From NCBI RefSeq assembly GCF_049243625.1, contig NZ_CP046975.1: a stretch of 32,000 nucleotides of DNA; one strand, written 5' to 3'. The notes under the pieces are model-generated. The model did not search any database. It was not told where the DNA came from and saw only the letters and a list, made by a program, of their open reading frames with translations. Within the stretch, counting starts at the first letter, position 1. Every line of letters begins with the position of its first letter. This DNA is from Corynebacterium amycolatum. GTDB lineage: Bacteria; Actinomycetota; Actinomycetes; Mycobacteriales; Mycobacteriaceae. Position numbers and translations under genes: made by a program. Shown here piece by piece: positions 19,363 to 20,274 of this stretch.

Positions 19363-19443
19363 CATGCCCATTTTCGCTTTACGACGGCCCGTAACTTCAA
19401 TGTTGTGTTTAGGGGTAGCGGGGGTAGTAGCAAATTGGGTTGA

Positions 19444-19848
19444 TTCTCCACATGTCCACAGTCCTGTGGACAAAATACTCCACTGTTCACCTAGGTGAAC
19501 ATGGACCAAGAAGCACGTTACGGGTCCCAATTTTCACAAATTACAAGAATCCACAGTTGTCCACAGACTTGTGCACATGTGTGGATAATTCCATTCTTGT
19601 AATTTACGAACCAGCGTTCGAAAGTGGTCGAACTCCGCAGAATATTGGAATTACATACAAGTTGACTTGCAACTATGTTACTTGTTCACAGAATTATCCA
19701 CAGGCTGTGGATACTGTGGACACAGGGGATAGAGCCAAAGTTGTCATGCTTTACGGTTTCTGTCATGTAACCCGTGAGAATTTTGGGACGAAATCTCTCC
19801 ACAGTTATCCACAAATTACATGATTGTTACACAGGTTTCTGTGGATAA
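19444..19848. other. Dense DnaA-box cluster (about 13 boxes) in the convergent ppiA-crgA spacer; oriC-like or datA-like element
   Basis: Exact TTATCCACA at 19694-19702 and 19805-19813, and its complement TGTGGATAA at 19580-19588 and 19840-19848. Exact TTGTCCACA at 19557-19565, and its complement at 19465-19473. One-mismatch boxes at 19444-19452, 19452-19460, 19682-19690, 19706-19714 and 19715-19723. Two-mismatch boxes at 19547-19555 and 19795-19803. Confidence 0.8.
19485..19500. promoter_or_regulatory. Perfect 16-bp palindrome GTTCACCTAGGTGAAC inside the DnaA-box cluster
   Basis: Read directly from the sequence. Its size and symmetry fit a dimeric HTH operator. Confidence 0.3.
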
Positions 19849-19948
19849 CTTTTTTGCGCGATCAATAGGAGGGAAATCCCCATTCTCCGAAAAAGGTGTG
19901 GGAAACGGGTGTATTGACGGGGGTGAATTGACCTGGGTTTTTAGGTAT

Positions 19949-19979
19949 GAAAAAGGCGCATCCAAAAGTGGATGCGCCT
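19949..19979 (-). terminator. Rho-independent terminator of crgA
   Basis: 11-bp perfect stem AGGCGCATCCA / TGGATGCGCCT (19954-19979), 4-nt loop, followed on the minus strand by T5. Confidence 0.85.
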
Positions 19980-20004: not shown

Positions 20005-20274
20005 CTAACGCCAACCCATAGTCATCAGCAGACCAACAATGAAAAGACCAAAGCCGATGACGTAGTTCCATGCGTTCAAAGTCACCATGAACGGAATATG
20101 CGGACCCGCGATGTAGTTGACCAGCAGCCAGCCCAAACCAATCAGCATGAACCCGAACATCAGCACCTTGTACCACACCGGTGTCTGAGTGCTGTTGATC
20201 TTGACCGGGGTACGGCTGACGGAGGAGCCACCGGATTGTGGTGAATTAGTGCTTTCAATCTTTGCCTTAGGCAT
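20005..20274 (-). CDS. crgA: Cell division protein CrgA (89 aa)
   Basis: MPKAK...VSRTPVKI N-terminus. Two TM helices. C-terminal [23 protein letters not shown] matches the CrgA family. Conserved neighbourhood. Confidence 0.92.

What the first reader, a model, noticed from the sequence alone, without database searches (positions are those of the whole stretch)
19440..19850. Second, larger DnaA-box cluster in a terminator-insulated convergent spacer 17.5 kb from oriC
I count 13 DnaA-box-like 9-mers in about 405 bp; coordinates are in the feature list. Six match TT(A/G)TCCACA exactly, five have one mismatch and two have two mismatches. The canonical dnaA-dnaN spacer of the same window has five. 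A specific 9-mer is expected about 0.24 times on both strands of 32 kb, yet TTATCCACA occurs 4 times here and twice at oriC. Outside these two loci I noticed only a one-mismatch box at 5406-5414. The locus is AT-rich (about 43% GC on line 19561) and has a ~100-bp box-free AT-rich core (about 19591-19681) between two box groups. It lies between the 3' ends of ppiA (+) and crgA (-). Strong intrinsic terminators bound it on both sides (19332-19362 and 19949-19979). It is therefore shielded from read-through and is not placed to serve as a promoter for either neighbour. In M. tuberculosis the syntenic slot holds a protein-coding gene (Rv0010c). There are three possibilities. It could be a datA- or DBC-type DnaA-titration or regulatory locus, as known in E. 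coli and B. subtilis. It could be a second module of a split origin, or the true unwinding site. It could be a relic of an oriC duplication. I am not aware of such an element being described at ppiA-crgA in Corynebacteriales.
Basis: partly seen in the sequence, partly recalled or inferred. Interest (0 to 1): 0.85.

Follow-up and report, generated by a model that had tools for sequence, protein, structure and literature searches.

The report
Conserved non-origin DnaA-box cluster near crgA
A gene-free spacer 17.5 kb from the replication origin of a Corynebacterium chromosome holds a dense, evolutionarily conserved array of binding sites for the replication initiator DnaA; it is most likely a control site for initiation rather than a second origin, and a short core of it is shared by many actinobacterial genera.

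Summary
Window 19444-19848 has 12 DnaA boxes with at most one mismatch to TTRTCCACA, plus 3-4 weaker ones. The dnaA-dnaN spacer has 5 and the rest of the 32 kb has 10. The spacer lies between the 3' ends of ppiA and crgA, has a terminator on each side, and shows no conserved ORF and no Rfam family.

It is not a second origin. The only DnaA-box/DnaA-trio unwinding module in the window, and its least stable 30-mer, are in the dnaA-dnaN spacer. GC skew also places the start left of about 3 kb.

The cluster is under selection. In diverged relatives the box columns are 78% conserved against 40% for the rest. All 25 untruncated loci labelled Corynebacterium carry 5-14 boxes at this position, against a background of 0.1 per 500 bp. 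A core of about 55 bp (box>, N3-4, box>, N1-3, <box, then ACA-N4-TGTAAT) recurs next to crgA in Mycobacterium, Rhodococcus, Micrococcales and other genera. A Streptomyces locus has the three boxes without the palindrome. The box layout matches the E. coli DARS1 core, but the convergent pair is 1-3 bp apart instead of 5.

Best reading: an origin-proximal DnaA-binding regulatory cluster of the B. subtilis DBC, S. coelicolor D78 or E. coli datA kind. I found no description of it in the literature I could search.

The parts
19332..19362 (+). Intrinsic terminator of ppiA; left boundary of the insulated spacer
   Evidence: 11-bp stem with 8 GC pairs followed by TTTTTCAT. Conserved in the closest relatives.
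19398..19430 (.). Conserved G-rich flank motif, TCAATGTTG..TTTAGGGGTAG.GGGGGTAG. It is not a DnaA box and its role is unknown.
   Evidence: Invariant or nearly invariant columns in all 10 genomes of the C. amycolatum clade.
19444..19473 (.). Box module 1: TTCTCCACA (19444-52, +), ATGTCCACA (19452-60, +), TTGTCCACA (19465-73, -)
   Evidence: It is a conservation island in alignment A1.
19538..19545 (-). TGTAATTT motif, copy 1 in the cluster, immediately left of module 2
   Evidence: 4 copies in the window against 0.27 expected, all at oriC or in this cluster.
19547..19588 (.). Box module 2, the genus-wide core: GAATCCACA (+, 2 mismatches), TTGTCCACA (19557, +), TTGTGCACA (19569, +), TTATCCACA (19580, -). 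It has the layout box> N3 box> N2 <box.
   Evidence: It corresponds to the module found in Corynebacterium, Rhodococcus, Mycobacterium and Micrococcales.
19589..19605 (+). Imperfect palindrome ATTCCA-N4-TGTAAT ending in TGTAATTT (19598-19605). It always follows the third box of the core module.
   Evidence: Examples are ATCACAtgcgTGTGAT in Mycobacterium and CTTACAcgcgTGTAAG in Arthrobacter.
19606..19621 (.). LexA SOS-box-like palindrome ACGAACCAGCGTTCGA, in the box-free AT-rich core
   Evidence: One mismatch to TCGAAC(N4)GTTCGA and the best match in the window. The consensus is from PMC3381160. The full palindrome is kept only in the closest relatives; the CGAAC half is genus-wide.
19682..19723 (.). 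Box module 3: TTGTTCACA (+), TTATCCACA (19694, +), GTATCCACA (19706, -), GTGTCCACA (19715, -)
   Evidence: It is the best-conserved island, 19684-19719.
19795..19848 (.). Box module 4: CTCTCCACA (+, 2 mismatches), TTATCCACA (19805, +), TGTAATTT (19813-20, -), the direct repeat ATTACAtgattGTTAC (19815-30), and TTATCCACA (19840, -)
   Evidence: The stretch is nearly invariant in 9 of 10 relatives.
19888..19925 (.). Conserved G-rich right flank motif, GTGTGGGAAACGGG.GTA...GGGGGTGA. Role unknown.
19954..19979 (-). Intrinsic terminator of crgA; right boundary
   Evidence: 11-bp stem with 7 GC pairs followed by TTTTTCAT on the minus strand.
1811..1908 (.). Context: the five DnaA boxes of the canonical oriC in the dnaA-dnaN spacer
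1952..2011 (+). Context: unwinding module of the canonical oriC. It consists of the box ATGTGCACA, then CCCC, then CTA TTA CTA (DnaA-trios 3'-GAT-5' on the minus strand), then the least stable 30-mer of the window (1982-2011).
   Evidence: The definition of the module is from PMC8287927.

Best explanation
The ppiA-crgA spacer is a conserved, non-coding, origin-proximal DnaA-box cluster that does not act as an origin.

Proposed mechanism. DnaA binds cooperatively to four modules of 3-4 closely spaced boxes, about 14-16 sites in all. Each module has two direct boxes facing one or two inverted ones. The result is a stable nucleoprotein array shielded from transcription by the terminators of both converging genes. 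The array lies 17.5 kb from oriC, so it is copied within about a minute of initiation. At that moment the number of high-affinity sites per cell doubles. This draws DnaA away from, or inactivates it for, the newly replicated origins and holds back premature re-initiation. That is how the B. subtilis DBCs, S. coelicolor D78 and E. coli datA are described as acting.

A second, unidentified factor that recognises TGTAAT(T) palindromes, and possibly LexA, may modulate occupancy.

What is shown: the sites, their excess over chance, their arrangement, selection on them, the insulation, the conserved position, and the absence of an unwinding module. What is inferred: DnaA occupancy in vivo and the direction of the effect on initiation.
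For: The boxes are 12 within 405 bp, against 0.1 per 500 bp in 620 kb of related flanks, and 0 of 100 shuffles reach the window total. Both neighbours end here with terminators. There is no conserved ORF and no Rfam family.

Box columns are 78% identical in five diverged genomes against 40% for non-box columns, Mann-Whitney p=5e-26. All 25 untruncated loci labelled Corynebacterium carry 5-14 boxes at this position even though the flanking genes differ: a rhomboid gene is present or absent, and PAP2 or DAGK genes are inserted.

The three-box core is found 89 times in 294 kb downstream of ppiA and never in 340 kb upstream. It also occurs in Mycobacterium, Rhodococcus, Kocuria, Arthrobacter, Terrabacter, Microbacterium and Streptomyces.

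The unwinding module and the least stable DNA are at dnaA-dnaN, not here.

Precedents: origin-proximal DBCs restrain initiation in B. subtilis (PMC3245932). datA is a cluster of five boxes close to oriC (PMC4585315). D78 is cited as a negative regulator in S. coelicolor (PMC3479198).
Against: No binding or phenotype data exist for this locus. The direction of the effect is not encoded in the sequence: the core has the box topology of the E. coli DARS1 core, which reactivates DnaA. There is no IHF consensus such as datA needs. Mycobacterium keeps only about 3 boxes and Kribbella and Micropruina keep none, so a large titration capacity is not universal. The extra conserved motifs (TGTAAT palindrome, SOS-like box) suggest local transcriptional control as well.
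Confidence: 0.55

Rival explanations
1. DARS-like element. [quoted passage not shown] On this reading it stimulates initiation instead of restraining it.
For: The E. coli DARS1 core read from the genome is TAATACACA-N3-TTATCCACA-N5-AGTGGATAA. That is two direct boxes 3 bp apart facing a third, the same order and orientation as the actinobacterial core, and the same detector picks it up. PMC6868365 states that three boxes with I/II opposed and II/III direct are the essential DARS core. DnaA L290 is conserved in the window's DnaA. To my knowledge Actinobacteria have no known DnaA nucleotide-state regulator; that point rests on my own knowledge, not on a test here.
Against: The convergent pair is 1-3 bp apart here and 5 bp apart in DARS1, which changes the rotational setting by more than 100 degrees. 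Gln208, needed for the head-to-head contact in E. coli, is Asn in this DnaA. The E. coli DARS loci lie far from oriC (17.5 and 64 min against 84.6 min), whereas this locus is 17.5 kb away. Early duplication suits a brake better than an accelerator.
Confidence: 0.15
2. Primarily a transcription-control region. DnaA, together with the TGTAAT-palindrome factor and LexA, controls a promoter or acts as a roadblock for a local transcript. That transcript would be the Rv0010c-type gene in Mycobacteriales, or an unannotated small RNA or crgA antisense RNA in Corynebacterium.
For: In Mycobacterium and Rhodococcus the core lies between the 3' end of crgA and the start of the bPH_6 gene. B. subtilis DBCs also regulate neighbouring genes. 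A conserved palindrome and an SOS-like box lie just beside the boxes. TAATTT followed by the SOS-like box resembles a LexA-covered -10/+1 region; this is my inference from the sequence.
Against: In the window both neighbours end at the spacer, so it cannot be their promoter. No conserved ORF or Rfam RNA lies inside it. The orientation of the core relative to crgA flips between lineages: plus in Corynebacterium and Rhodococcus, minus in Terrabacter, Streptomyces and some Microbacterium. The genes next to it vary. Twelve or more boxes are far more than a promoter needs.
Confidence: 0.2
3. A second replication origin, the second half of a split origin, or the real unwinding site.
For: It has more and better boxes than the dnaA-dnaN spacer and a 91-bp AT-rich stretch of 40% GC. 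The 13-mer AATCATGTAATTT is shared with oriC.
Against: None of the roughly 16 boxes has three or more GAT-type trios within 16 bp. The only such module in 32 kb is at 1952-1973, followed by the least stable 30-mer, 1982-2011. The AT-rich stretches in the cluster rank only 10th and 12th. The stretch also lies in the midst of the boxes, where DUEs are 'never' located according to PMC4285127. GC skew is positive from about 3 to 17 kb. Genome papers place the corynebacterial oriC downstream of dnaA. As I recall, the two parts of known bipartite origins are separated by about one gene, not 17.5 kb; I did not verify that spacing here.
Confidence: 0.03
4. A decaying relic of an old oriC duplication, or a chance accumulation of boxes, with no present function.
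For: Apart from the boxes and one 13-mer, there is no extended similarity to oriC that would point to a recent copy.
Against: The boxes are conserved while the spacers diverge. The element is present in every untruncated Corynebacterium locus examined and its core is present across orders.
Confidence: 0.02

Closest known systems
Bacillus subtilis origin-proximal DnaA-box clusters (DBCs; Okumura et al. 2012, PMC3245932)
   Same: Both are intergenic clusters of DnaA boxes outside oriC and mostly close to it. In Bacillus they bind DnaA stably, restrain initiation collectively and can also affect neighbouring genes. Position and box density match.
   Different: There is no sequence homology. The Bacillus clusters lie upstream of different genes in different species, whereas this one keeps its chromosomal position across a phylum and has a fixed three-box core with an adjoining palindrome. 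DnaA binding and phenotype are untested here.
Streptomyces coelicolor D78 DnaA-box cluster (Smulczyk-Krawczyszyn et al. 2006, J Bacteriol 188:6184)
   Same: It belongs to the same phylum. It is an extra-origin cluster near oriC and is cited as a negative regulator of replication (PMC3479198). From memory, that paper also listed two further clusters, H69 and H24. Cosmid H69 may carry crgA (SCO3854), in which case H69 would be the Streptomyces counterpart of this element.
   Different: I could not read the paper, so the link to H69 is unverified. D78 itself is, as I recall, at a different locus. The Streptomyces crgA-side cluster I retrieved has only 4 boxes and no obvious TGTAAT palindrome.
E. 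coli datA
   Same: Both are clusters of five or more high-affinity boxes close to oriC and duplicated early. datA lowers initiation potential.
   Different: datA works through IHF-dependent ATP hydrolysis and needs an IHF site between boxes. No IHF consensus is present here, and to my knowledge Actinobacteria lack classical IHF. There is no sequence relationship.
E. coli DARS1/DARS2 core
   Same: The three-box topology is identical: two direct boxes 3 bp apart and a third facing them.
   Different: The convergent spacing is 1-3 bp here against 5 bp. The location is origin-proximal rather than distal. Q208 is N in this DnaA. Four modules are present instead of one, and no Fis or IHF region is evident.
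Canonical actinobacterial oriC (dnaA-dnaN spacer)
   Same: It uses the same box consensus, TT(A/G)TCCACA, and shares the TGTAATTT motif. Both are AT-rich intergenic regions.
   Different: The cluster has no DnaA-trio unwinding module, is not adjacent to dnaA or dnaN, and has its AT-rich stretch inside the box array.

Membership tests
Functional replication origin (oriC with the basal unwinding system, BUS) | A DnaA box (at most 2 mismatches) within 16 bp of three or more DnaA-trios (3'-GAT-5'), as defined in PMC8287927 | tested here: not met
   The scan of both strands of the window finds one site only, 1952-1973 in the dnaA-dnaN spacer, and none in 19363-19953.
Functional replication origin (oriC with the basal unwinding system, BUS) | A DNA unwinding element flanking the box cluster rather than inside it, and the least stable DNA of the region | tested here: not met
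   The least stable 30-mer is 1982-2011. The cluster's AT-rich stretches rank 10th and 12th and lie between box groups. The rule comes from PMC4285127.
Functional replication origin (oriC with the basal unwinding system, BUS) | Switch of strand compositional skew at the site | tested here: inconclusive
   GC skew is positive from about 3 to 17 kb, which fits a start left of 3 kb. However, 32 kb is short and gene orientation confounds the signal.
Functional replication origin (oriC with the basal unwinding system, BUS) | Autonomous replication or DnaA-dependent opening | not testable with these tools
   Needs a plasmid ARS assay or P1/KMnO4 footprinting.
Extra-origin DnaA-box cluster of the DBC/D78 type | A dense cluster of consensus DnaA boxes in a non-coding region outside oriC | tested here: met
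   Twelve boxes with at most 1 mismatch in 405 bp; non-coding.
Extra-origin DnaA-box cluster of the DBC/D78 type | Origin-proximal position | tested here: met
   It is 17.5 kb from the oriC boxes, and the ppiA-crgA neighbourhood is kept in the relatives.
Extra-origin DnaA-box cluster of the DBC/D78 type | Stable DnaA binding in vivo, and early or over-initiation on deletion | not testable with these tools
   Needs ChIP-seq and ori/ter measurement after deletion.
E. coli datA (DDAH) | An IHF-binding site between essential boxes | tested here: not met
   No WATCAANNNNTTR in 19363-19953.
E. coli datA (DDAH) | Stimulation of DnaA-ATP hydrolysis | not testable with these tools
   Biochemical assay required.
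E. coli DARS | A core of three boxes, I and II opposed, II and III direct | tested here: met
   Modules at 19557-19588 and 19682-19714 fit, as do the cores in 50 of 80 loci; DARS1 itself is scored by the same detector.
E. coli DARS | A 5-bp gap between the opposed boxes I and II (PMC6868365) | tested here: not met
   Among the 89 cores in relatives, the gap is 1-3 bp in 87, 0 bp in one and 4 bp in one; it is never 5. In the window it is 2 and 3 bp.
E. coli DARS | DnaA Gln208 and Leu290, needed for ADP release | tested here: inconclusive
   In the alignment with E. coli DnaA, Q208 aligns with Asn and L290 is conserved.
E. coli DARS | ADP dissociation from DnaA | not testable with these tools
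   Biochemical assay required.

The most novel reading that the evidence does not exclude
The roughly 55-bp core (box>, N3-4, box>, N1-3, <box, then the palindrome ACA-N4-TGTAAT) is an ancient DnaA control element that has stayed beside crgA in many Actinomycetota. In this reading it is an actinobacterial counterpart of the DARS core, or a new kind of DnaA-state switch that works with a second, unidentified palindrome-binding protein which also binds oriC. Corynebacterium would have multiplied the core into a four-module array. This would give a first handle on how a phylum without Hda, SeqA or YabA controls its initiator, and on how replication is tied to the division-gene neighbourhood and perhaps to the SOS response.
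Probability: 0.15. Interest if true: 0.85.

Novelty: new member of a known kind. Interest (0 to 1): 0.6.

Why it matters
To my knowledge, regulation of replication initiation is poorly understood in Actinobacteria, which include the pathogens M. tuberculosis and C. diphtheriae and the producers Streptomyces and C. glutamicum. The regulators known from E. coli and Bacillus (Hda, SeqA, YabA, Soj-dependent control) are absent or unproven there.

This locus is a candidate cis-acting regulator that can be tested directly. It is non-coding and strongly conserved. It has a fixed position 10-30 kb from oriC and a defined 55-bp core. The tests are deletion, relocation, extra copies, ChIP and nucleotide-state assays, in several model species at once.

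The finding also warns users of origin-prediction programs that rank intergenic regions by DnaA-box count. In this genome the box-richest spacer is not the origin.

Tried and rejected
1. Coding potential. The 127-aa ORF at 19440-19823 has no NCBIfam or Pfam hit and is broken in relatives whose spacer is 87% identical or less. The small ORFs are unconvincing.

2. Known RNA. Rfam gives nothing at gathering thresholds, and at E up to 5 there are only sub-threshold hits, none approaching its family's gathering score.

3. Duplicate of oriC. BLAST between the two spacers finds only boxes, one 13-mer and a 22-bp stretch containing a box.

4. IHF site as in datA: none.

5. MtrA-type direct repeat RTNAC-N6-RTNAC. 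There is one site in the cluster (19815-19830), but the window total equals chance, 2 against 2.3 expected. I kept it only as a note.

6. parS. There is one two-mismatch site at 10771, none in the cluster.

7. Literature. Ten full-text searches and several papers gave no description of DnaA boxes at ppiA-crgA or of a secondary cluster in Corynebacterium. The key S. coelicolor paper (PMC1595370) is not held, so whether its 'H69' cluster is this locus remains unverified.

8. Searching with the window's own CrgA returned only Corynebacterium. I therefore typed the Mycobacterium and Streptomyces CrgA sequences from memory to reach those genera.

9. Identity of the protein that binds the TGTAAT palindrome. 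I compared it from memory with the CRP/GlxR, BldD, NrdR, LexA and WhiA sites. None fits, and it remains unexplained.
Full report
Observation. The window begins with dnaA (1-1749) and dnaN (2263-3453). The finding lies between ppiA (18743-19309, +) and crgA (20005-20274, -), followed by a trpG/pabA-like gene and pknB. PpiA is 98% identical to that of Corynebacterium amycolatum SK46, so this is the origin region of a C. amycolatum-like chromosome. TTATCCACA with at most one mismatch occurs 17 times in the window against 3.9 expected, and 0 of 100 shuffles reach that number. Scored against TT(A/G)TCCACA, 19444-19848 holds six exact boxes, six with one mismatch and three or four with two mismatches. 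The dnaA-dnaN spacer holds five with at most one mismatch, and ten single boxes are scattered over the remaining 31 kb. GC is 0.42 in the cluster. Both neighbours end at the spacer with hairpin-plus-T-run terminators at 19332-19358(+) and 19979-19954(-).

The spacer is not a gene and not a known RNA. The mechanical 127-aa ORF at 19440-19823 has no family hit. It is open only in the closest relatives and is broken in genomes whose spacer is 87% identical or less. Rfam finds only three tRNAs elsewhere in the window at gathering thresholds. At E up to 5 the spacer gives only sub-threshold hits, none approaching its family's gathering score.

Selection on the boxes. I fetched 80 loci around PpiA relatives. 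Alignment of the spacer from ten genomes of the C. amycolatum clade shows conservation in islands that coincide with four groups of boxes. In the five most diverged genomes the box columns are 78% identical to the window and the other columns 40% (Mann-Whitney p=5e-26). Each group has direct boxes facing one or two inverted boxes. The group centres are 116, 126 and 123 bp apart.

Distribution. Across the loci the background is 0.105 boxes per 500 bp in 620 kb outside each locus's densest 500-bp stretch. The densest 500 bp, always downstream of ppiA, holds 5-14 boxes in all 25 untruncated loci labelled Corynebacterium. It holds 4-8 in Kocuria, 9 in Arthrobacter, 6-7 in Terrabacter, 5-6 in Rhodococcus, 4 in a Streptomyces, 1 plus 2 degenerate in Mycobacterium, and 0-2 in Kribbella and Micropruina. 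In most corynebacteria the order is ppiA, rhomboid, cluster, variable genes (PAP2, DAGK and others), crgA. The C. amycolatum clade lacks the rhomboid gene at this place. The cluster therefore stays while its neighbours change.

A conserved core. The module that aligns genus-wide is box>, N3-4, box>, N1-3, <box, followed after 2-3 bp by a palindrome (C/T)(C/T)ACA-N4-TGT(A/G)A(T). Examples:
- Window: TTGTCCACAgacTTGTGCACAtgTGTGGATAAttccattctTGTAATTT
- Rhodococcus: TTATCCACAggctTCATCCACAtTGGGGATGAatgACAcgcgTGTAACT
- M. tuberculosis-like contig: TTATCCACAgacgCTATCAACAgTGGGGATGAatCACAtgcgTGTGATT
- Arthrobacter: TTTTCCACAgcTTGTCCCCAcTGTGGGTAActtACAcgcgTGTAAGT

A simple detector for the three boxes (at most 4 mismatches in total) finds 89 instances in 294 kb downstream of ppiA and none in 340 kb of ppiA and upstream DNA. 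Fifty of the 80 loci have at least one. The detector also finds the core in the Mycobacterium, Mycolicibacterium and Streptomyces loci fetched through CrgA. In Mycobacterium and Rhodococcus the core lies between the 3' end of crgA and the start of the bPH_6 (Rv0010c-type) gene. Its orientation relative to crgA differs between lineages.

Origin or not. PMC8287927 defines the basal unwinding system as one or two DnaA boxes, a spacer of at most 16 bp and at least three DnaA-trios with consensus 3'-GAT-5'. A scan of both strands of the window for a box (at most 2 mismatches) within 16 bp of three or more GAT-type trios gives a single site: ATGTGCACA-CCCC-CTATTACTA at 1952-1973 in the dnaA-dnaN spacer. 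Directly after it lies the least stable 30-mer of the whole window, 1982-2011, which is 80% AT. The cluster has no such module, although it has about 16 candidate boxes. Its AT-rich stretches rank 10th and 12th and lie between box groups. A review states that DUEs are 'never in the midst of a cluster' (PMC4285127). GC skew is positive from about 3 to 17 kb, as expected if forks move rightwards from the dnaA end. This is weak evidence because the window is short. Corynebacterial genome papers also place oriC downstream of dnaA. The two spacers share only boxes, one 13-mer and a 22-bp stretch that contains a box. I conclude that the canonical origin is the origin and the cluster is not.

Other motifs. 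TGTAATTT occurs four times in the window against 0.27 expected, and 0 of 100 shuffles reach four. One copy is at oriC (1940), just before the unwinding-module box, and three are in the cluster (19538-, 19598+, 19813-). In the related loci TGTAATT is found almost only in the cluster. This suggests a second factor common to oriC and the cluster, which I could not identify. ACGAACCAGCGTTCGA at 19606-19621 differs at one position from the mycobacterial LexA consensus TCGAAC(N4)GTTCGA (PMC3381160) and is the best match in the window. The full palindrome is kept only in the closest relatives. The CGAAC half, about 4 bp after TGTAATT, is genus-wide. ATTACAtgattGTTAC at 19815-19830 fits the 11-bp direct repeat reported for MtrA (PMC6265350), but such a pattern is expected about twice per window by chance. 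G-rich motifs at 19398-19430 and 19888-19925 are conserved within the clade and remain unexplained.

Comparison with known systems. Extra-origin DnaA-box clusters are an established kind. In B. subtilis six DBCs, mostly near oriC, bind DnaA stably. Deleting all six advances initiation, and some also regulate neighbouring genes (PMC3245932). E. coli datA has five boxes and an IHF site close to oriC and promotes ATP hydrolysis (PMC4585315). S. coelicolor D78 is cited as a negative regulator (PMC3479198). The present cluster matches these in density, non-coding nature and proximity to oriC. It lacks an IHF consensus.

The DARS cores of E. coli are defined by three boxes, with I and II opposed and II and III direct (PMC6868365). 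I read DARS1 from the MG1655 genome: TAATACACA-tgg-TTATCCACA-ggaat-AGTGGATAA. This is the topology of the actinobacterial core, and the same detector reports it. The differences are the gap between the convergent boxes (5 bp in DARS1; 1-3 bp in 87 of the 89 cores here, and never 5), the position relative to oriC, and Gln208 of E. coli DnaA, which is Asn in this DnaA while Leu290 is kept. The sequence alone therefore cannot tell whether the array sequesters, inactivates or reactivates DnaA.

Most likely mechanism. DnaA occupies the four modules cooperatively. Terminators on both sides keep RNA polymerase from sweeping the complex. Because the array is 17.5 kb from oriC it is duplicated within about a minute of initiation; this timing is my estimate from a fork rate of a few hundred bp per second and was not measured. 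The number of strong sites then doubles and free or active DnaA falls while the new origins could otherwise re-fire. I give this reading 0.55. A local transcriptional role (0.2) and a DARS-like role (0.15) remain open and are not mutually exclusive with binding. A second origin (0.03) or a relic (0.02) is unlikely.

Novelty and limits. Ten full-text searches found no description of DnaA boxes at ppiA-crgA or of a secondary cluster in Corynebacterium. The 2006 S. coelicolor paper, which from memory lists clusters H69, H24 and D78, is not in the library. H69 may be the crgA-side cluster, so part of this may have been seen before in Streptomyces. I could scan only the window and about 8 kb around each related locus, not whole genomes, so uniqueness of the core genome-wide is not shown. 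All functional statements are inferences from sequence and conservation.

Noticed in passing
window 1952-2011: The canonical oriC carries a clear unwinding module: box ATGTGCACA, then CCCC, then CTA TTA CTA (three 3'-GAT-5'-type DnaA-trios on the minus strand), then the least stable 30-mer of the whole window (1982-2011, 80% AT). It is the only such site in 32 kb.
   Followed up: yes
window 1940-1947, 19538-19545, 19598-19605, 19813-19820: TGTAATTT occurs 4 times against 0.27 expected, and only at oriC and in the cluster. AATCATGTAATTT is shared by both loci. In relatives the motif is part of a palindrome, ACA-N4-TGTAAT, right after the third box of the core. The binding factor is unknown.
   Followed up: partly
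window 19606-19621: ACGAACCAGCGTTCGA is one mismatch from the mycobacterial LexA SOS box TCGAAC(N4)GTTCGA, and it sits in the centre of the DnaA-box array. The full palindrome is kept only in the closest relatives; the CGAAC half-site is kept genus-wide.
   Followed up: partly
window 19815-19830: ATTACAtgattGTTAC fits the MtrA-type direct repeat (RTnAC, 11-bp period) and is nearly invariant in 9 of 10 relatives. The pattern alone is not above chance in the window.
   Followed up: partly
window 19398-19430 and 19888-19925: Two G-rich motifs (TTTAGGGGTAG.GGGGGTAG and GGGAAACGGG.GTA...GGGGGTGA) flank the box array and are conserved across the C. amycolatum clade. Their function is unknown.
   Followed up: no
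window 10771-10786: GGTTTCACGTGAAACG is a parS-like palindrome, two mismatches from TGTTTCACGTGAAACA, in the stretch ahead of the large ORF at 11403-14006 that I take from its position to be gyrA.
   Followed up: no
window 14547-16165: Two tRNA genes (14547-14620, 14652-14724) are followed by an IS1249-family transposase on the minus strand (14843-16165).
   Followed up: no
window 16000-18700: This is a low-GC stretch (0.44-0.53 against 0.575 for the window). Its ORFs at 16741-17244 and 17587-18468 have no Pfam or NCBIfam hit. It may be acquired DNA just upstream of ppiA.
   Followed up: no
L041 5415-5800 and 8009-8140: The Arthrobacter locus has two separate clusters between ppiA and crgA. 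One has 9 boxes; the other, next to crgA, has 6 boxes in two copies of the three-box core.
   Followed up: partly
L051 (CAVFKS010000002.1): This contig is labelled 'Clostridia bacterium' but carries Corynebacterium-like ppiA, crgA and the 12-box cluster. It is probably a mislabelled or contaminated bin.
   Followed up: no
L081 4394-4402 and L083 4395-4403: Mycobacterium keeps one perfect TTATCCACA plus two degenerate boxes and the palindrome ATCACAtgcgTGTGAT. These lie between crgA and the Rv0010c-type gene, about 100 bp (L081) and about 35 bp (L083) upstream of that gene's start.
   Followed up: partly
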